NCBI GenBank assembly: GCA_965214495.1
Contig: OZ243958.1
Span: 405,989 to 469,988, forward strand
Length of the DNA: 64,000 nucleotides
DNA from: Alphaproteobacteria bacterium
GTDB taxonomy: Bacteria > Pseudomonadota > Alphaproteobacteria > UBA7887
Direction: 5' to 3'
Of the stretch, positions 3,845 to 18,662 are shown piece after piece. The notes beneath the pieces are model-generated. The model was not told where the DNA came from. It searched no databases and saw nothing but the letters and a program-made list of their open reading frames with translations. The position numbers and the translations under genes are program-made. The stretch's first letter is position 1. The number at the start of each line of letters is the position of its first letter.

Positions 3845-4572
3845 ACGGGAAGGGTGAGCGCATCGCCCGGCGCATCGCCCGCGCCGGCCTGTGTTCGCGG
3901 CGCGAGGCGGAACGCTGGATCGCCGCCGGGCGGGTGGCGCTCAACGGCGCGATGCTCGACAGCCCGGCGGTAACGGTCGGCGCGGAGGATCGCGTGACGG
4001 TCGATGGCGCGGCGCTTCCGCCGCCGCCGCGCGCCGGGTTGTGGCGCTATCACAAACCGCGCGGCCTCGTCACGAGCCACGCCGACGAGCGCGGCCGGCC
4101 GACCGTGTTCGAGCGTCTGCCGTCCGGCCTGCCGAGGCTGATTTCGGTGGGGCGCCTGGATCTCAACTCCGAAGGGTTGTTGCTGCTGACGAATGACGGC
4201 GCGCTCGCCCGGCATCTCGAATTGCCGGCGACCGGCTTCACGCGCCGTTACCGCGTGCGCGCCGACGGCGTGCTCGACGAGGCGGCGCGGGTCCGGCTCG
4301 CCAAGGGAGTCCGTTTCGAGGGCGCCGCCTGGGGACCCGTCGGCGTGACGGTGGAGGAGGGGAGCGGGCGCAATCGCTGGCACACGGTCTCGTTGCGCGA
4401 GGGGCGCAACCGCGAGGTCCGCAAATTGTTCGCCGCTTTCGGGCTGGAAGTCGGCCGTCTGGTGCGAATCGCCTACGGGCCGTTCCAGCTCGGCAAGCTG
4501 GAGAAGGGTGCGGTTTCGCCGGTCGCGCCCCGGGTGCTGGCGGAGCAGCTCGGGGCGCGCTGGCGTTCGTGA
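3832..4572 (+). CDS. rsuA: rRNA pseudouridine synthase, RsuA/RluB family (N-terminal S4 domain).
   Basis: GERIARRIARAGLCSRREAERWIAAGRVALNG is an S4 domain, and RLDLNSEGLLLLTNDG is the catalytic-Asp motif. The ORF opens at ATG 3769, but the upstream gene stops at 3844. A GTG at 3832 gives a 13-nt overlap and is the more plausible start. Confidence 0.75.
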   Translation: MPELNGKGERIARRIARAGLCSRREAERWIAAGRVALNGAMLDSPAVTVGAEDRVTVDGAALPPPPRAGLWRYHKPRGLVTSHADERGRPTVFERLPSGLPRLISVGRLDLNSEGLLLLTNDGALARHLELPATGFTRRYRVRADGVLDEAARVRLAKGVRFEGAAWGPVGVTVEEGSGRNRWHTVSLREGRNREVRKLFAAFGLEVGRLVRIAYGPFQLGKLEKGAVSPVAPRVLAEQLGARWRS

Positions 4573-5132
4573 GGATCGTCGCCGGTCGTTTCCGGGGCCG
4601 CCGGATCGCGGTTCCGTCCGGTGCGGCGGCGCGTCCGACGAGTGCCCGCGCACGGGAGGCGCTGTTCGACATACTCATCCACAACCCGGCCTTCGCCGAC
4701 GCCCCCATCGCCGGCGCGACGGTGGTGGACGCGTTCGCGGGCAGCGGCGCGCTCGGCCTCGAGGCGCTGTCGCGAGGCGCCCGCTTCGTCCACTTCATCG
4801 ACATCGACCCCGCCGCGCTGGCGGTCGTGCGTGAGAATCTCTCCACGCTCGACGCCGCCGCGCGCACCGCGTTGCATCGCCGCGACGCGGCGGACCCGGG
4901 ACCGGCGCCGGAGGCGGCGGCGTTCGCCTTCCTCGATCCGCCCTACGGTGCGGGCCTTGCCGGCCGGGCGCTCGGCGCGCTGGCGGCGGCCGGCTGGCTG
5001 GCGCCGGACGCTGTCGCGACCGTGGAACACGGGGCGGGCGAGGCATTGGCGCCGCCCGACGGCTTCCGCACGGTCCTCCGCCGCCGCTACGGTCGTGGCG
5101 TGATCGACCTCTTGCGCCGCGCGGGTCGATGA
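4569..5132 (+). CDS. rsmD: 16S rRNA (guanine966-N2)-methyltransferase RsmD.
   Basis: 187 aa with MRIVAGRFRGRRI, VVDAFAGSGALGLEALSRGA (SAM motif I) and FLDPPY (motif IV). The start overlaps the upstream stop by 4 nt, indicating translational coupling. Confidence 0.85.
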   Translation: MRIVAGRFRGRRIAVPSGAAARPTSARAREALFDILIHNPAFADAPIAGATVVDAFAGSGALGLEALSRGARFVHFIDIDPAALAVVRENLSTLDAAARTALHRRDAADPGPAPEAAAFAFLDPPYGAGLAGRALGALAAAGWLAPDAVATVEHGAGEALAPPDGFRTVLRRRYGRGVIDLLRRAGR

Positions 5133-5318
5133 CGTGCCGCCACGTCCGGCAATTCTCGTTGCCGTTCCGGCGAATCCGAATTACCGCGCCATCGTTCGCG
5201 GTGTCGATAGCAAGGGGAGTTGGCCGGATGCCGTTTCGGTGCGCGGGCGTCCCGCCCGCATCCGCTCCGACGGCCGCCTTTGGCGGATGCCGTATTCGCG
5301 CGCGACACCCTTGCGGGC

Positions 5319-5822
5319 GGGTAGTGTCTCGGTTTGAAATCGACACACGCGGCGGGACGACCGGGTTCCAGCGTGCCACCATCCCACCGTCATCGCCGGC
5401 ACGAACCGCGACAATCCCTGTAGGGGCAACCCTTGTGGTTGCCCGCCCTTGTTTCCCGCCTGTTCGAGGGTTCGGGCACCCACAACGGGCGCCCCTACAG
5501 GCGACTGTCGCGTTTGCCCCAACGGGTCATGCAGGGTTCGGGCACCCACAAGGGGCGCCCCTACAGGCTCCCGGCGAGATCGTACTCGACAACGGCACCG
5601 GGTTCGGGCACCCACAAGGGGTGCCCCTACAGGCGACTGTCGCGTTTGCCCCGACGGGTCATGCAGGGTTCGGGCACCCACAAGGGGCGCCCCTACGGGC
5701 GGGTCGATGTCGCCTGGCACGCCCGCCCCTTCGCGGCGGCCTGGAGGCGTCGCCGTCCCGCTGTCATTGCCAACACGAACCTGAACGAACCGCGATAATT
5801 TTCAAACCGAGACACTACCCGA
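5319..5822. mobile_element. Non-autonomous MITE-like composite repeat of about 500 bp, bounded by 22-bp perfect terminal inverted repeats (cgggtagtgtctcggtttgaaa ... tttcaaaccgagacactacccg). Inside are five REP-like hairpin units (GGGCAcCCACAAGGGgcGCCCCTACAGG and variants).
   Basis: Both the TIRs and the internal imperfect palindromes were read directly. Related copies or fragments lie at about 12985-13300, 16880-16960, 18290-18440 and 60400-60700. It has no coding capacity; the overlapping ORFs 5129..5917 and 5181..5720 are artefacts. Confidence 0.55.
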
Positions 5823-5889
5823 CGCAGGGTTGCCGCGCGCCGTCGCGGCGCGTAGCGTCGCGTGCCGCCGAACCCGCAGGGAGAGTTCC

Positions 5890-6204
5890 ATGTCCGTCGT
5901 CCACGTCGTCGCCGTGATCACCGCCAGGCCGGGGATGCGCGACCGTATCCTCGACGCGTTCCAGGCCAACGTTCCCAGCGTGCGCGCCGAAGACGGGTGC
6001 ATCGAATACACCGCCACCGTCGATGCGGACGGCGTCGGACCGTTGCAGACGCGCTTCGGCGACGAAACCTTCGTGGCGGTCGAGAAATGGGCGAGTCTCG
6101 ATGCGCTGAAGGCGCACGCTGTCGCCCCGCACATGAAAGCCTATGCGGCGAAGACGAAGGACATGATCGCCGAACGCTCCATCCATGTGCTGACCCCGGC
6201 CTGA
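5890..6204 (+). CDS. Antibiotic biosynthesis monooxygenase (ABM) domain protein / putative quinol monooxygenase.
   Basis: MSVVHVVAVITARPGMRDRILDAFQANVPSVRAEDGCIEYTATVD... is typical of the ABM fold. An SD (gcagggagag) lies 5 nt before the ATG at 5890. The ORF opens at 5830 with TTG, but the ABM domain starts at M21. Confidence 0.7.
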   Translation: MSVVHVVAVITARPGMRDRILDAFQANVPSVRAEDGCIEYTATVDADGVGPLQTRFGDETFVAVEKWASLDALKAHAVAPHMKAYAAKTKDMIAERSIHVLTPA

Positions 6205-8348: not shown

Positions 8349-9554
8349 TCAGGCCCGCTCGATCAGCGCGGCGATGCCCTGGCCGACTCCGATGCACATG
8401 GCGCACAGCGCGTAGCGTCCGCCGCGCCGTGCGAGTTCGACCGTTGCGGTGGTCGCCAGCCGCGCGCCGCTCATGCCGAGGGGGTGGCCGAGCGCGATCG
8501 CGCCGCCGTTCGGGTTGACGTGTTCGGCGTCGTCGGCGAGGCCGAGTTCGCGCAACACCGCCAGCGCCTGCGCGGCAAAGGCTTCGTTGAGTTCGATCAC
8601 GTCGATATCGCGCAGGGCGACGCCGGTGCGTTGCAGCAGCTTGCGCGTCGCCGGCGCCGGGCCGACCCCCATGAGCCGCGGCGCGACCCCGGCGGTGGCC
8701 ATCGCGACGACCCGCGCCGCCGGTTCGAGGCCGTGGCGCCGTGCGGCGTCTTCCGAAGCCACGATCAGCGCGCAGGCGCCGTCGTTCACGCCCGATGCGT
8801 TGCCGGCGGTCACGCTGCCGCCGTCGCGAAACGGCGTCGGCAGGCGGGCGAGGCCCTCGGGCGTCGTGTCGGGCCGGGGGTGCTCGTCGGTCTCGACGAC
8901 CGTCGGAGCGCCCTTGCGCCGGGGAACCGTGACGGGAACGATCTCGTCGGCGAACCGGTCCTCGCGCATGGCGGCTTCGGCGCGTCGCTGGCTCCGCAGC
9001 GCGAAGGCGTCCTGGTCGGCGCGTGAGATCTGGAACGCTTCCGCGACGTTCTCCGCCGTTTCGGGCATCGAATCGATGCCGTGGCGCGCCTTCATCTTCG
9101 GGTTGACGAACCGCCAGCCGATGGTGGTGTCGAAGGTTTCGACCTTGCGCGAGAAGGCGCCCTCGGCCTTGCCGGTGACGAACGGCGCGCGCGACATGCT
9201 CTCCACCCCGCCGGCGATCATGAGGTCGGCCTCGCCGGTCCTGACCGCCCGCGCCGCCGAGCCGAGCGCGTCGAGACCGGACCCGCACAGCCGGTTGACG
9301 GTGCTGCCGGACACCGTCTCCGGCAGCCCGGCCAGCAACAGCGCCATGCGCGCGACGTTGCGGTTGTCTTCGCCGGCCTGGTTGGCGCAACCGAGGACCA
9401 CGTCGTCCACCGCGTCCCAGTCGGTATCGGGGTGGCGCGCCATCAGCGCCTCGACGGGTTTCGCGGCGAGGTCGTCGGTGCGCACCGCCGCCAGCGCGCC
9501 GCCATAGCGTCCGATGGGCGTGCGCACCGCGTCGCAGATCCAGGCTTCGGTCAT
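8349..9554 (-). CDS. Acetyl-CoA C-acyltransferase / 3-oxoadipyl-CoA thiolase (thiolase family, PcaF/PaaJ-like).
   Basis: 401 aa with [11 protein letters not shown] (active-site Cys), [20 protein letters not shown] and [12 protein letters not shown] (C-terminal thiolase signatures). Confidence 0.9.
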
Positions 9555-9588
9555 GGCGTCGTCCCTCCGGTTTCGCCGCGCGCCGCGG

Positions 9589-9693
9589 TCAGACGAGTTC
9601 GAGCCAGTCGAACAGCAGTATCAGGCCGCGCATCGCCGCATAGGCGGCGGAGCCGAAAACCGCCGCGGCGAGAATGGCGCGCACGTGCCCCAT
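9589..9693 (-). CDS. Hypothetical 34-aa hydrophobic peptide ([34 protein letters not shown]).
   Basis: It sits in the 170-bp gap between the thiolase and deacetylase genes. I see no convincing SD, so the evidence is weak. Confidence 0.15.
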
Positions 9694-9725
9694 GCGGGCA
9701 GCATAACAAAGACGGGTCGGCGTCC

Positions 9726-10652
9726 CTACGCCGCCAGCGCGGCGACGTGCGCCGCGGCGGAGGCCGCGAGCGCGGGAAGGTCGTAACCGCCTTCGAGGAC
9801 CGAGACGACGCGCCCGGCGCAGCTATCGTCGGCGACCTCGCAGGCGCGTTCGGCGATCCAGCCATAGTCGTCCTCGACCAGTTCGAGATTGGCGAGCGGG
9901 TCGCGGCGGTGGCCGTCGAAACCCGCCGACATCAGGATCAACGCCGGATGAAAGGCGGCGAGCCGCGCGAAGAAGCGCTCCCACACGGCGCGGAACGCGA
10001 CTCCGCCGGCGCCGGGCGGCAGCGGCATGTTGACGATATTGCCGATTCCGGTCTCCGACGCGGCGCCGGTGCCGGGATAGAGCGGCGACTGGTGGCTGGA
10101 CGCGAACAGAACCTGCGGCCGGCGCGCGAACGCCGCCTGTGTGCCGTTGCCGTGATGCACGTCGAAATCGAGGATCGCGACGCGCTCGAGGTCATGGGCG
10201 GCGAGTGCGTGGGCCGCGCCGACCGCGATATTGTTGAACAGGCAGAAGCCCATCGCCCGATCGGGTTCGGCGTGATGCCCCGGCGGGCGCACGGCGCAGA
10301 AGGCGCGCCGGGTTTCGCCGCCGAGCACCGCATCGACCGCCGCACACACCGCGCCGGCGGCGCGCAGGGCGGCCGCGCGCGAACCCGGAGAAACCACTGT
10401 GTCGCCGTCGATCCGGGCATGTCCTTCGCGCGGGATCGCCGCGAGCACCCCGTCGATCATCGCAGACGTATGGACCCGTTCGAGTTGGGCGCGCGCCGCC
10501 TCGGGCGCCGGGCGGCGGGGAAGGCTCCCGAAGCGCGGCGCGGCGAGCGCGTCGGCGATCGCCCGCAGGCGCTCCGCGCTCTCCGGGTGGCCGGCGCCCG
10601 TGTCGTGGCCGAGAAAGGCCGGATCGGTGAAAATCGTCAGCGGTTCTTGCAT
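9726..10652 (-). CDS. Histone deacetylase-family protein (class II HDAC / acetoin utilisation AcuC / acetylpolyamine aminohydrolase-like).
   Basis: 308 aa from MQEPLTIFTDPAFLGHDTGAGHPE with PPGHHAEPDRAMGFCLFNN, ILDFDVHHGNGTQ (zinc ligands D-H-D) and VLEGGY. The longer 837-aa ORF is an artefact. Confidence 0.85.
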   Translation of the reverse strand: MQEPLTIFTDPAFLGHDTGAGHPESAERLRAIADALAAPRFGSLPRRPAPEAARAQLERVHTSAMIDGVLAAIPREGHARIDGDTVVSPGSRAAALRAAGAVCAAVDAVLGGETRRAFCAVRPPGHHAEPDRAMGFCLFNNIAVGAAHALAAHDLERVAILDFDVHHGNGTQAAFARRPQVLFASSHQSPLYPGTGAASETGIGNIVNMPLPPGAGGVAFRAVWERFFARLAAFHPALILMSAGFDGHRRDPLANLELVEDDYGWIAERACEVADDSCAGRVVSVLEGGYDLPALAASAAAHVAALAA

Positions 10653-10709: not shown

Positions 10710-11657
10710 ATGGATGCCGTTACCCTGCAGACGGTCCTCGATCTTCCGGGCCTCAACGTCATCCTGCTGCTGCTGTTCGCCGCCATCGTGCTCTGGCGCG
10801 GCGTCACCATCGTTCCGCAGTCGGAAGTGTATGTGGTCGAGCGTTTCGGAAAATACCAGAGAACGCTGCCGGCCGGGCTGAACCTGATCGTGCCGTTTCT
10901 CGACCGGGTTTCGCACCGCATATCGGTGCTCGAACGCCAGTTGCCCGAATTCGCGATCAGCGTCATCACGCGCGACAATGTCGAGGTCAATCTCGAGGCG
11001 ACGGTCTTCTACCGGATCGTCGATGCGGCGCGGTCGATCTACCGCATCCGCGACGCCGACAGCGCGCTTCATACCGAAGCGACGTCGATCGTGCGTTCGG
11101 CGGCAGGCCGGCTCGAGCTCGACGAGTTGCAGTCGTCGCGCGAAGAGATGAACGAGGAGATCGGCCGCAACCTCCAGTCGAAAGCCGACGAATGGGGGCT
11201 GGACATCACCTCGACCGCGATCACCGACGTCGTGGTGGACGAGTTGACCAAGACGGCGCAGCGCCAGCAGTTGAACGCCGAGCGCGAGCGCCGCGCCGCC
11301 ATCGCCCGCGCCGGCGGCGAGAAACGCGCGGTGGAACTGGCGGCCGAGGCGAAACTCTACGAGGCGCAGAAAGAGGCCGAAGCGCTGCGGGCGACCGCCG
11401 ATGCGGAAGCCTATGCGGTTCGGGTCAAGGCCGAGGCGGACGCCGAACAGACCCGGCTGGTCGCCCGCGCGATCGCCGAAGACGGCCAGCCGGCGGTCGA
11501 TTTCGAGGTTCTGAAGCGCCAGGTCGAGGCGCTCGGCCAACTCGCGGCGTCGCCCAACGCGAAGACCGTCGTCGTACCCACCGAGGTGACCGGGGTCATC
11601 GGGTCGCTGCAAACCATCGCCGAGAACATGGGACGGTCGCGAGATGGAGTTCGCTGA
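10710..11657 (+). CDS. SPFH/band 7 family protein (stomatin/paraslipin-like; N-terminal TM helix, PHB domain, coiled coil).
   Basis: 315 aa: MDAVTLQTVLDLPGLNVILLLLFAAIVLWRGVTIVPQSEVYVVERFGKY... with a C-terminal Ala/Glu-rich coiled coil. The preceding part of ORF 9081..11657 is antisense of the deacetylase. Confidence 0.9.
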   Translation: MDAVTLQTVLDLPGLNVILLLLFAAIVLWRGVTIVPQSEVYVVERFGKYQRTLPAGLNLIVPFLDRVSHRISVLERQLPEFAISVITRDNVEVNLEATVFYRIVDAARSIYRIRDADSALHTEATSIVRSAAGRLELDELQSSREEMNEEIGRNLQSKADEWGLDITSTAITDVVVDELTKTAQRQQLNAERERRAAIARAGGEKRAVELAAEAKLYEAQKEAEALRATADAEAYAVRVKAEADAEQTRLVARAIAEDGQPAVDFEVLKRQVEALGQLAASPNAKTVVVPTEVTGVIGSLQTIAENMGRSRDGVR

Positions 11658-12984: not shown

Positions 12985-13300
12985 TGAATGCGCCGCTGTC
13001 ATCGCCGGCACGGCCCGCAACGACCCCCGGGTGTGCGGGCGTCCCGCCCGCATCCCGACCGCCGTCATCGCCCGCACGGTCCGCAACAATTCCCGCCTGT
13101 TCGGAGGTTCGGGCGCCCACAAGGGGCGGCCCTACAGGCGGGTCCGTGCGGCCCGCCGCCGCGGCCTGTTCGGATGTTCGGGCGCCCACAAGGGGCGCCC
13201 CTACAGGCGGCTCTCCCTTGTCGCCCCGCCTGTTCGGGGGTTGGGGCGACCCCACAGGCGGGTCCGTCCGGGCCGCCGCCGCGGCGCGTCATTCGCGGCG
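12985..13300. repeat. Cluster of REP-like palindromic units of the same family as in 5319-5822 (gttcgggcgcccacaaggggcggccctacaggcgg x3), plus the associated gtcatcgccggcacg / gcgggcgtcccgcccgcatcc sub-repeats.
   Basis: Read directly. No 22-bp TIR ends are visible here, so this is a degenerate or partial copy lying between the transporter and the DUF465 gene. Confidence 0.5.
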
Positions 13301-16476: not shown

Positions 16477-16719
16477 ATGAAGAAGGTCACCGTCGCATTG
16501 CCCGACGATGTCGCGGCGTGGCTGAGGTCCCGGGCCGCGGAGAACGGGCGCAGCGTATCCGCATGGCTCGCCGGGGTGCTGGAAGGGATGCGGCGTGGCG
16601 AGGACCGGTACGACCTCGCCATGAAGCGCTATCTGGCCGGAACGCCGCGCCGGGCGGGTTGGGCCGACGGTCGCAAGCCTGCGCGCGACGAACTGCATGA
16701 CCGTTCCGGTCTTCGTTGA
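16477..16719 (+). CDS. Ribbon-helix-helix / VapB-like type II antitoxin.
   Basis: 80 aa MKKVTVALPDDVAAWLRSRAAENGRSVSAWLAGVLEGMRR is a CopG/RHH antitoxin pattern. Its 3' end overlaps the start of the PIN gene remnant by 23 nt. Confidence 0.65.
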   Translation: MKKVTVALPDDVAAWLRSRAAENGRSVSAWLAGVLEGMRRGEDRYDLAMKRYLAGTPRRAGWADGRKPARDELHDRSGLR

Positions 16720-16972
16720 CACCAACGTTCTCGTTTACCGGCAAGACGGTTCCGACCCGGCCAAACAGTCCCGCGCCCATGACTGGATCGCGCATCTTGC
16801 ACGGCGTCGCGCCCGAAGGCGCCTGAAGCGCGCGGTGCTTCGAAGATGCGGGCGGGACGGACTCGGTCCGCGGGGCCCGCGCACCGGCTGTCATTGCCGA
16901 CATGCACCGCACCCCGAACGAATCGCGATAATTTTCGAACCGGGACACGACCGAAGAGGAGAACGACGATGA
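16697..16972 (+). pseudogene. Truncated PIN-domain (VapC) toxin gene. Only about the first 35 codons, including the FVDTNVLVY first acidic-residue motif, are PIN-like. The rest of the 91-codon ORF reads through a copy of the repeat-element end (cgcgataattttcgaaccgggacac).
   Basis: MTVPVFVDTNVLVYRQDGSDPAKQSRAHDWIAH is followed by Arg-rich non-PIN sequence. Intact VapC proteins are about 130-140 aa and carry three more conserved acidic residues, which are absent here. Confidence 0.5.
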
Positions 16973-18289: not shown

Positions 18290-18440
18290 CCGCAGGGGCG
18301 TTGTTGCGGTTCGTTGCGGTTCGTGCCGGATCGGCCCGTTTGCAGGGGCAAGCCTTGTGGTTGCCCTCGGTTGTCGTCGTTCTGCTCGGGGGTTCGGGCA
18401 ACCACAAGGGTTGCCCCTACAGATTGTTGCGGTTCGTTCC
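18290..18440. repeat. Two REP-like hairpin units (gcaggggcaagccttgtggttgccctcgg ... gggcaaccacaagggttgcccctacag) of the same family as in 5319-5822.
   Basis: The imperfect palindrome GGGCAACCACAAGGGTTGCCCCTACAG and its partner were read directly, between thyX and the adhesin-gene promoter region. Confidence 0.5.
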
Positions 18441-18662
18441 GAGGGCGGTCATGGGGTAAATGGAACGATCGTTCCATTTATAGTTGAACCGAACGTTTCA
18501 GAAAATATCCCGGTAATCTCGCGGCTACGGTCTTGACATTCCTGCAAGCGCAGGCGCCTTGTTCAAGGTCTGAGACTTGTCTTTGGGGGCGGTCGGATGA
18601 GATGTTTTCAACCTGTCTGCAAACGTGAGCGGGACGCGGAAAACGCGCGAAGCGTCGGGTTT

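What the first reader, a model, noticed from the sequence alone, without database searches (positions are those of the whole stretch)
5319..5822. Previously uncatalogued MITE-like element with 22-bp perfect terminal inverted repeats enclosing REP-type hairpins
Left end cgggtagtgtctcggtttgaaa (5319-5340) and right end tttcaaaccgagacactacccg (about 5800-5822) are perfect inverted complements. Between them lie five copies of an imperfect palindrome GGGCA(C/A)CCACAAGGG(G/T)(C/T)GCCCCTACAGG and its complement, plus sub-repeats gtcatcgccggcacgaacc and gcgggcgtcccgcccgcatcc. The structure carries no ORF, which points to a non-autonomous element mobilised in trans. At least four further partial copies occur in this 64-kb window (12985-13300, 16880-16960, 18290-18440, 60400-60700), a high density. 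Solo right-end fragments sit immediately upstream of the start codons of both ABM genes (5890, 16969) and of rpsU. The element may therefore contribute promoter, RBS-proximal or terminator function.
Basis: seen in the sequence. Interest (0 to 1): 0.65.

Follow-up and report, generated by a model that had tools for sequence, protein, structure and literature searches.

The report
IS1-type miniature transposon filled with REP hairpins
The 22-base inverted repeats are real and are the ends of a widespread IS1-family insertion sequence, so this 500-bp stretch is an ordinary transposase-less relic of that element whose inside is occupied by the host's own REP hairpins.

Summary
It encloses five GTAG-headed REP hairpins and no gene.

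The arms can now be named. They are the terminal inverted repeats of a widespread insertion-sequence group, with consensus GGTAGTGTCTCAGTTTGAAATTT. In other genomes I found 44 inverted pairs of these arms, 396-4324 bp apart. Of these, 33 are flanked by a perfect 8-bp target-site duplication. Twenty-one carry a roughly 296-aa DDE transposase that RefSeq names "IS1 family". That transposase passes the Pfam IS1 threshold, and its stop codon lies inside one arm. Short pairs keep only transposase fragments.

The window copy (5320-5819) has no transposase remnant and no target duplication. Its interior is host-specific repeat DNA: REPs plus a "Y" module. A syntenic relative has a 148-nt spacer at this position, so the unit is an insertion.

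Two of the four "partial copies" (16931-16952 and 60660-60681) are decayed solo ends. The other two are REP clusters without arms. I found no evidence for a promoter role.

Verdict: a non-autonomous, MITE-like member of a known IS family, nested with known REP elements. Whether it is currently mobile is unproven. Interest is low.

The parts
5320..5819 (.). Whole arm-bounded unit: a 500-bp non-autonomous IS1-family derivative. Family termini are GG at 5320 and CC at 5819. The perfect inverted repeat runs 2 nt further, to 5318 and 5821.
   Evidence: Absent from the syntenic RsmD-ABM spacer of L007.
5318..5339 (-). Left terminal inverted repeat (CG)GGTAGTGTCTCGGTTTGAAA. It matches the family consensus GGTAGTGTCTCAGTTTGAAATTT and the IS1/IS6-type end GGnnnTG.
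   Evidence: nhmmer E=1.9e-6; literature.
5800..5821 (+). Right terminal inverted repeat TTTCAAACCGAGACACTACC(CG). The terminus at 5819 lies 70 nt before the ABM start codon at 5890.
   Evidence: E=1.8e-6. Homology to the upstream DNA of ABM orthologues resumes here.
5417..5445 (+). REP 1 (CCTGTAGGGGCAACCCTTGTGGTTGCCCG). With REP 2 it forms a tail-to-tail, REPIN-like doublet.
5467..5701 (-). Tandem array of REPs 2-5 with a 66-nt period. A 132-nt higher-order copy is 96% identical. GTAG heads are on the - strand at 5474-5501, 5540-5567, 5606-5633 and 5672-5699.
5384..5416 (+). Host repeat module 'Y' (..CCGTCATCGCCGGCACGAACCGCGACAAT), abutting the GTAG head of REP 1.
   Evidence: Nine Y copies occur in the window; none occurs in any other fetched locus.
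5757..5797 (+). Second Y module (GCTGTCATTGCCAACACGAACCTGAACGAACCGCGATAAT), abutting the inner side of the right arm.
5238..5263 (.). Hairpin module 'X' (GCGGGCG-TCC-CGCCCGC), outside the element. It corresponds to the post-RsmD hairpin of the syntenic relative.
16884..16952 (+). Solo right end: a Y module plus a decayed arm ATTTTCGAACCGGGACACGACC at 16931-16952. The terminus lies 16 nt before the second ABM start codon at 16969. It sits where a PIN-toxin ORF is cut off.
   Evidence: (E=0.014).
60660..60681 (+). Solo, more decayed arm ATTTTCAAACCGTCACACGACC, preceded by Y-like and X-like modules and two REPs. It lies 93 nt before the rpsU TTG start at 60775.
13111..13204 (-). REP cluster of two units, plus Y and X modules at 12993-13090. 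No arm is present, so this is not a copy of the element.
18342..18420 (.). REPIN-like REP doublet flanked by Y modules. No arm is present.
60416..60472 (.). REP doublet upstream of the 60660 solo arm.

Best explanation
Positions 5320-5819 are a non-autonomous (MITE-like) derivative or relic of an IS1-family insertion sequence. It lies in the RsmD-ABM spacer.

Shown: the two 20-22-nt arms are the terminal inverted repeats that the roughly 296-aa DDE transposase of this IS group acts on. In autonomous relatives, the element inserts with an 8-bp target duplication, and the transposase reading frame ends (..ISN-stop) inside one arm.

Inferred: the window copy encodes nothing, so it could move only if a cognate transposase elsewhere in the genome acts in trans. 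Its interior is not IS-derived. It is host repeat DNA: a REPIN-like doublet of GTAG-tagged REP hairpins, expanded by local tandem duplication to five units, plus 'Y' modules. This DNA either colonised the element after insertion or was carried as non-coding cargo. Relatives of this IS commonly carry cargo genes.

Inferred: the arms at 16931-16952 and 60660-60681 are older, decayed solo ends of the same lineage. All four arms share the A12-to-G change that destroys the transposase stop codon.

Inferred: the missing target duplication is best explained by later rearrangement. Candidates are recombination between copies, or the adjacent deletion or inversion typical of replicative IS1/IS6-type transposition.

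Any effect on the ABM genes or rpsU would be a by-product of insertion next to their 5' ends, not a demonstrated function.
For: 1. The arms are real and not chance.
2. The same arms bound transposed elements elsewhere.
- In an Acidiphilium multivorum plasmid, arms flank a 2634-bp unit with a perfect 8-bp duplication, CTCGGCTT. It holds a transposase annotated 'IS1 family' whose TGA stop lies in the arm.
- In L003, arms with the perfect duplication CGAAGCTC enclose only an EamA transporter gene.
- Among 134 fetched loci there are 44 further inverted pairs, 33 with perfect 8/8 duplications.
- Twenty-one pairs hold full-length transposase homologues at 54-75% identity. Pairs of 396-900 bp keep only N- or C-terminal fragments.
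3. Family assignment.
- Pfam DDE_Tnp_IS1 scores 30-33 bits, above its 24.1 cut-off.
- The NCBIfam IS1 model is the best hit.
- RefSeq names homologues in six genera 'IS1 family transposase'.
- GGnnnTG ends are an IS1/IS6 hallmark (PMC6807381).
- An IS1-family ISAba3-like element has the TIR GGTGGTGTTTCA... and an 8-bp duplication (PMC6382973).
4. There is no transposase or coding signal in the window unit.
5. It is an insertion. The syntenic relative L007 has a 148-nt spacer once its own IS is removed, and homology to ABM upstream DNA resumes at the right terminus (also for L009/L014).
6. The paired arms are near-consensus and identical to each other over 22 nt, while the solo arms have 3 differences from the right arm and 5 from the left arm over the 22-nt family arm.
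7. REP and Y modules occur in the window without arms. REPs occur in none of the other 44 arm-bounded elements.
Against: - There is no target-site duplication at this copy (3/8). About three quarters of pairs elsewhere have a perfect one.
- Only one complete pair lies in the 64 kb. The rest of the genome could not be retrieved, so multi-copy status and a cognate transposase in this genome are untested.
- Nothing beyond about 22 nt at each end is IS-derived, so the two arms could have separate histories.
- The Y module abuts the inner side of all three right-hand arms and also abuts REP heads. A simple 'MITE later invaded by REPs' story does not explain this.
- NCBIfam IS1 scores for the relatives' transposases (64-78 bits) are below that model's cut-off of 100.
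Confidence: 0.68

Rival explanations
1. This is not one element. Two independently derived solo IS1-type ends (or the product of an inversion or deletion between two copies) happen to bracket a pre-existing REP/BIME-like cluster. On this view 5320-5819 never moved as a unit.
For: - No target duplication is present.
- The interior is entirely host repeat DNA, also found without arms.
- The window holds two further solo arms, each with a Y module on its inner side.
- The block 5231-5315, left of the left arm, is homologous to 60540-60621, which at the other locus is followed by Y and an arm.
- IS1/IS6-type replicative transposition is known to remove duplications by adjacent deletion (PMC6807381).
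Against: - Both termini face outward, as in a single element and unlike the inner ends of two flanking copies.
- The two arms are identical over 22 nt and near-consensus, while the solo arms are decayed.
- The size of 500 bp is typical of confirmed miniature derivatives: 396-917 bp, many with perfect duplications.
- The relative's spacer lacks the whole block.
Confidence: 0.22
2. The arm motif is primarily a cis-regulatory element, or one domesticated as such: a promoter part, operator or 5'-UTR signal placed in front of ABM, ABM2 and rpsU. Its inverted pair would be a binding-site palindrome.
For: - Arms end 16-93 nt before three start codons in the window.
- Arms lie similarly close to gene starts in L001, L003, L005 and L006.
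- IS6-family ends are known to supply -35 boxes for hybrid promoters (PMC7986276).
Against: - No sigma-70-like promoter is found at any arm.
- ABM orthologues in L007, L009 and L014 lack the motif.
- Orientation toward the neighbouring gene is automatic for the outer end of any element inserted upstream.
- The family-wide target duplications and transposase show that the motif's selected role is transposition.
Confidence: 0.07
3. The inverted repeat is a chance or purely local inverted duplication with no relation to mobile DNA.
For: None beyond the absence of a target duplication.
Against: There were zero matches in 100 shuffles. The same 20-23-mer bounds dozens of elements with perfect 8-bp duplications in unrelated genomes.
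Confidence: 0.01

Closest known systems
IS1 family insertion sequences, single-ORF type (for example ISAba3-like elements)
   Same: - Ends are of the form GGnnnTG. Ours read GGTAGTGTCTCA, against GGTGGTGTTTCA for the ISAba3-like TIR (10/12).
- Relatives make an 8-bp target duplication.
- Relatives carry a DDE transposase hitting Pfam DDE_Tnp_IS1, named IS1 family by RefSeq.
- The transposase frame ends inside one inverted repeat.
   Different: - The window copy has no transposase, no transposase remnant and no target duplication.
- The transposases of the relatives score below the NCBIfam IS1 equivalog cut-off, so this is a divergent subgroup.
- Many relatives carry cargo genes.
IS6/IS26 family
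   Same: GGnnnTG ends, an 8-bp target duplication, an N-terminal HTH plus DDE transposase, and a tendency to lose duplications through replicative events.
   Different: The NCBIfam IS6 model scores far lower (25-34 bits) than the IS1 model (64-78 bits). Arm sequence beyond GGnnnTG differs from GGCACTGTTGCAAA. Elements are longer and often carry cargo.
Bacterial MITEs and mobile insertion cassettes (for example MITEAba12, Correia elements, tIS/MIC)
   Same: A short, non-coding, TIR-bounded unit presumed to be mobilised in trans. Relatives show a full range from autonomous IS through cargo-carrying copies to miniature deletion derivatives.
   Different: Multi-copy status and a duplication are not shown for this copy. 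The interior is made of another class of repeat (REPs) rather than IS-derived or unique sequence.
GTAG-tagged REPs, REPINs and BIMEs mobilised by RAYT (TnpA-REP) (Nunvar 2010; Di Nocera 2013; Ton-Hoang 2012)
   Same: A GTAG head followed by a GC-rich 8-bp stem. Units are extragenic and clustered, with inverted doublets and a mosaic with other short modules (X, Y). The stem covaries across more than 100 unrelated contigs.
   Different: No RAYT gene lies in the 64 kb. Four of the five units are direct tandem copies rather than alternating. The cluster lies inside IS-type inverted repeats.

Membership tests
IS1 family (as a derivative of it) | Terminal inverted repeats ending in GGnnnTG | tested here: met
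   Both arms begin GGTAGTG. The GGnnnTG feature is stated for IS1 and IS6 in PMC6807381. The ISAba3-like TIR is given in PMC6382973.
IS1 family (as a derivative of it) | 8-9-bp target-site duplication | tested here: not met
   Window flanks are TGCGGGCG and CGACGCAG, 3/8. The feature is met for the arm family elsewhere: 33 of 44 pairs have perfect 8/8 duplications.
IS1 family (as a derivative of it) | IS1-type DDE transposase encoded between the ends | tested here: not met
   There is no transposase similarity in the unit or anywhere in the window (tblastn). Relatives carry one: PF03400 at 30-33 bits against a 24.1 cut-off, NCBIfam IS1 as best hit but below cut-off, and RefSeq naming. The window unit can therefore only be a non-autonomous derivative.
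IS1 family (as a derivative of it) | Transposase reading frame terminates within one inverted repeat | tested here: inconclusive
   This is true in autonomous relatives (AAC TGA GAC in the arm, with C-terminus ..ISN). In all four window arms the codon reads CGA, so no stop is present. That fits a non-coding derivative.
MITE | Short (under about 600 bp), TIR-bounded, no transposase gene | tested here: met
   500 bp, a 22-nt perfect TIR, and no coding signal.
MITE | Flanking target-site duplication | tested here: not met
MITE | Several copies in the genome, and insertion polymorphism | not testable with these tools
   Only 64 kb is available, holding one pair and two solo ends. Genome look-ups failed. 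The species was not found in the genome collection. The syntenic relative lacks the unit.
MITE | Autonomous partner with matching TIRs | tested here: inconclusive
   Found in other organisms. Not testable in this genome.
REP (GTAG-tagged superfamily) | 20-40-nt imperfect palindrome forming a stable hairpin | tested here: met
   8-bp stem and 5-nt loop, -8.6 to -10.4 kcal/mol. Stem dinucleotides covary in 97/113 independent contexts, with six Watson-Crick types.
REP (GTAG-tagged superfamily) | Conserved GTAG tetranucleotide at one end | tested here: met
   All five units in the element and 9 of 11 in the window carry GTAG. The superfamily is described in PMC3733652.
REP (GTAG-tagged superfamily) | High-copy, extragenic distribution | tested here: met
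   Eleven units in four intergenic clusters in 64 kb, against 0-1 in shuffles.
REP (GTAG-tagged superfamily) | Cognate RAYT (Y1 transposase) gene in the genome | not testable with these tools
   None was noticed among the window genes scanned. The genome is unavailable. In metagenome hits, the same REP core sits beside ORFs with the HUH motif MPNHVHLL.

The most novel reading that the evidence does not exclude
The Y module plus the IS1-type arm, found three times in 64 kb and each time directly in front of a gene start (ABM, ABM2, rpsU), could be a lineage-specific, domesticated cassette. It might act as a transposase-derived regulator site or a portable 5' region. Alternatively, the arm-bounded unit could be a vehicle that lets an IS1-type transposase move REP arrays, linking two otherwise separate mobility systems (DDE and Y1/RAYT).
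Probability: 0.07. Interest if true: 0.55.

Novelty: new member of a known kind. Interest (0 to 1): 0.25.

Why it matters
This result mainly helps annotation. It gives a family name (IS1-type, 8-bp duplication, consensus end GGTAGTGTCTCAGTTTGAAATTT) to a motif that would otherwise look like a mysterious conserved sequence in front of genes in many Alphaproteobacteria and other phyla. It also separates that motif from the REP, X and Y repeats with which it is interleaved here.

Biologically, it documents insertion of mobile DNA within 16-93 nt of three start codons and the truncation of a toxin gene. It also shows REP hairpins residing inside a transposon-derived unit. None of this changes current understanding of IS elements, MITEs or REPs.

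Tried and rejected
- Rfam found nothing at gathering score in the whole window, and only chance-level hits in 5100-6000. There are no tRNAs.
- BLAST of 5200-5900 against plasmids gave no match.
- The genome-collection scan with the arm motif gave only 6 hits, none from the window's species. Those hits nevertheless led to the first inverted pairs.
- Exact-protein look-ups to extend the window (ABM, its 100% cluster representative, DUF6524) were all 'not on record'. The cluster look-up gave no names.
- The metagenome scan for the Y-arm junction gave 0 hits.
- A literature search for the arm sequence returned only unrelated primers. 'ISMhu11' is not in the library.
- Early guesses from memory were dropped once the 8-bp duplications and the transposase were seen. 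These were IS630/Tc1 (TA target), the Tn3-family 38-bp repeat (5-bp duplication), ISL3, IS1595, an integron attC site, an IS200/IS605 or IS110 RNA element, and an SOS box in the Y module.
- The 'GATAAT = -10 box' and hybrid-promoter ideas were dropped. No consensus promoter was found, and there is no -10-like hexamer at the required distance in the flanks.
- Co-orientation of arms with downstream genes was rejected as evidence of function, because it follows from geometry.
- I looked for a transposase C-terminus in the Y module by in-frame translation and found none.
- I searched for degenerate partner arms near 16.9 kb and 60.6 kb using 7-mismatch and nhmmer profile scans and found none.

Full report
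**Setting.** The window has 70.6% G+C. The finding lies in the 757-nt spacer between an RsmD-type methyltransferase gene (4569-5132, +) and a 104-aa ABM-domain gene (5890-6204, +). Rfam and tRNA scans found nothing here.

**Observation.**
- A perfect 22-nt inverted repeat lies at 5318-5339 / 5800-5821. It has no equal in 100 shuffles.
- Between the arms lie five copies of CCTGTAGGGGCnnCCCTTGTGGnnGCCC. One has its GTAG head on the + strand (5417-5445). Four have it on the - strand and form a 66-nt tandem array at 5467-5701, whose 132-nt higher-order copies are 96% identical.
- Each unit folds as GTAG plus an 8-bp stem and a 5-nt loop.
- No ORF inside shows the codon-position G+C pattern of real genes.
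- One detail is wrong. The hairpin gcgggcgtcccgcccgcatcc is at 5243-5263, outside the repeat.

**What the arms are.** A scan of one genome per species with the arm motif found only six places, none from the window's own species. Two of those loci held a second, inverted arm.
- In L003, the arms enclose an EamA transporter gene and are flanked by a perfect 8-bp direct repeat, CGAAGCTC.
- In L006, a 468-bp pair has flanks matching 6/8.

A short BLAST against plasmids found the motif in Mesorhizobium, Bradyrhizobium, Acidiphilium, Methylocystis, Methylocella, Hoeflea and others. In the Acidiphilium multivorum plasmid the arms bound a 2634-bp unit with the perfect duplication CTCGGCTT. That unit contains a 296-aa protein annotated "IS1 family transposase", whose last codons and TGA stop (..ATT TCA AAC TGA) lie in the arm itself.

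A scan of IMG/VR contigs found 112 stretches. Pairing arms across all fetched loci gave the following.
- There are 44 inverted pairs besides the window's, 396-4324 bp long, and 33 have a perfect 8/8 target duplication. Chance per pair is about 1.5e-5.
- Twenty-one pairs hold a full-length homologue of the Acidiphilium transposase at 54-75% identity. The shortest complete element is 1365 bp.
- Pairs of 396-900 bp retain only N- or C-terminal fragments.
- Longer ones carry cargo genes: XRE-HTH fused to an M78 peptidase, a P63C-domain protein, an SDH-type protease, and EamA.

The consensus end from 88 arms is GGTAGTGTCTCAGTTTGAAATTT.

**Family.**
- The transposases pass the Pfam DDE_Tnp_IS1 threshold: 30-33 bits against a cut-off of 24.1.
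- Their best NCBIfam model is IS1, at 64-78 bits. This is below its cut-off of 100, but far ahead of IS6, IS481, IS1595, IS256 and ISL3.
- RefSeq names homologues "IS1 family transposase" in Acidiphilium, Hoeflea, Mesorhizobium, Sphingomonas, Deinococcus and cyanobacteria.
- The end GGnnnTG is a stated feature of the IS1 family, shared with IS6/IS26 (PMC6807381).
- An IS1-family ISAba3-like element has the TIR GGTGGTGTTTCAAAAAGTATGCTG and an 8-bp duplication (PMC6382973). That TIR is 10/12 identical to our first twelve bases.

I therefore assign the arms to a divergent IS1-family group. IS6/IS26 is the nearest alternative.

**The window copy.**
- The window holds four arms: the pair at 5320 (-) and 5798 (+), and two solo arms at 16931-16952 and 60660-60681.
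- There is no transposase similarity anywhere in the window.
- The pair spans 500 bp, within the size range of confirmed miniature derivatives. Its flanks, TGCGGGCG and CGACGCAG, do not match.
- Both termini face outward, as in a single element.
- The paired arms are identical over 22 nt and near-consensus. Each solo arm differs from the right arm at 3 of 22 positions.
- All four arms have G instead of A at position 12, which removes the stop codon needed only in coding copies.
- A relative with conserved synteny (L007: pseudouridine synthase, RsmD, then ABM at 82% identity) has a 148-nt spacer once its own IS1380-like insertion (CTAG duplication) is removed. Window homology to ABM upstream DNA resumes at 5816-5884, at the right terminus (also for L009/L014). 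The unit is therefore an insertion relative to relatives.

**The interior.**
- The REP core CCACAAGGGnnGCCCCTACAGG occurs in more than 120 metagenome contigs of 23-73% G+C.
- The two free stem positions are complementary to their partners in 97 of 113 independent contexts, using six different Watson-Crick dinucleotide pairs. This is a selected hairpin of the GTAG-tagged REP superfamily (PMC3733652, PMC2817692).
- Some metagenome hits lie beside ORFs with the HUH motif MPNHVHLL, typical of Y1/RAYT transposases.
- The window has 11 REP units in four intergenic clusters.
- These units are interleaved with a "Y" module (GTCATCGCCGGCACGAACCGCAACAAT; nine copies) and an "X" hairpin. An X-like hairpin also follows RsmD in the relative.
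- REPs, Y and X all occur without arms, at 12985-13300 and 18290-18440.
- No other arm-bounded element contains REPs. No REP-scan locus (736 kb) contains arms. Y was found nowhere outside the window.
- The interior is therefore host repeat DNA, not IS-derived sequence.

**Mechanism.**
- Shown for the family: DDE transposition with 8-bp duplication, acting on these ends, with deletion derivatives and cargo-carrying forms.
- Inferred for this copy: it is a non-autonomous derivative that could move only with a transposase supplied in trans. REPs either colonised it and then expanded by tandem duplication, or were carried as non-coding cargo.
- Inferred for the missing duplication: later rearrangement is the likeliest cause. 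Replicative IS1/IS6-type events are known to remove duplications.
- Main rival: the two arms may have separate origins and merely bracket a REP cluster. I give this about 0.2.

**Regulatory role.** I found no support.
- There is no sigma-70-like site at any arm.
- The motif is absent upstream of ABM orthologues.
- The arms' orientation toward neighbouring genes is a geometric necessity.
- The insertions are nevertheless very close to start codons: 70, 16 and 93 nt. At 16.9 kb the repeat block replaces the distal part of a PIN-toxin ORF that follows an RHH antitoxin gene. Effects on expression are therefore plausible but untested.

**Verdict.** The thing is a member of a known and abundant IS family, nested with known REP elements. 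Mobility of this particular copy is not demonstrated. Novelty: new member of a known kind. Interest is about 0.25.

Noticed in passing
window 16477-16972: An RHH (FitA/CopG-like) antitoxin gene (16477-16719) is followed by an overlapping ORF starting MTVPVFVDTNVLVY.., which reads like a PIN/VapC N-terminus. That ORF loses all resemblance after about 35 codons, where the X/Y/arm repeat block begins. The toxin gene appears truncated by the mobile or repeat DNA.
   Followed up: partly
L134-L253 (metagenome contigs), e.g. L153, L181, L193, L241: The REP core CCACAAGGGnnGCCCCTACAGG is found in contigs from soil, peat and human-gut metagenomes spanning 23-73% G+C, with near-perfect stem covariation. 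In a recurrent set of contigs it directly follows an ORF segment MPNHVHLLLTLE (the HUH motif of Y1/RAYT-like transposases).
   Followed up: partly
L007 8315-9961; L009 about 8640-9858; L014 2292-3410: The DNA just upstream of ABM orthologues is repeatedly occupied by different insertion sequences: an IS1380-like element with a CTAG duplication in L007, and IS5-like elements or fragments in L009 and L014. The spacer seems to be a tolerated landing zone.
   Followed up: partly
L022-L133 (IMG/VR contigs): This IS1-type group is abundant in contigs classed as viral (112 stretches). It often carries cargo between the transposase and one end: an XRE-HTH fused to an M78 (ImmA/IrrE) peptidase in several independent copies, a P63C-domain protein, and an SDH-type ClpP-like protease.
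   Followed up: partly
L002 7380-7600 and L004 6340-6620 (Aestuariivita MAG chromosome): Two copies of a longer repeat carry the arm motif about 40 nt inside their shared boundary, next to a 56-aa MerR-like HTH ORF on the opposite strand. No partner arm was seen. The context is unclear. L002 also has a G13 homopolymer run at about 7330.
   Followed up: no
window 5384-5416, 5757-5797, 12993-13090, 16884-16930, 18296-18455, 60500-60660: A 27-40-nt 'Y' module (GTCATCGCCGGCACGAACCGCAACAAT) occurs nine times. Its ..CAAT end abuts either the GTAG head of a REP or the inner side of an IS1-type arm. It was found in no other locus fetched, and the reason for the adjacency is unexplained.
   Followed up: partly
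window 5238-5263, 13037-13060, 16845-16862, 60553-60575; L007 8250-8285; L009 about 10978-11014: A second palindromic family 'X' (GCGGGCG-TCC-CGCCCGC and variants) recurs in the window. Similar hairpins occur in related genomes, including directly after RsmD in L007. It may be a terminator-like hairpin family or a second REP class.
   Followed up: no
window 20102-47400 and 53665-60401: Three very long high-GC3 ORFs (1509, 6323 and 1503 aa) were not examined. They are followed by a 996-aa ORF with about 348-nt internal tandem periodicity, seen as a ladder of 86-94-aa antisense ORFs (mostly 89 aa) at 53880-56576. Next comes a 1249-aa He_PIG/Calx-beta protein.
   Followed up: no
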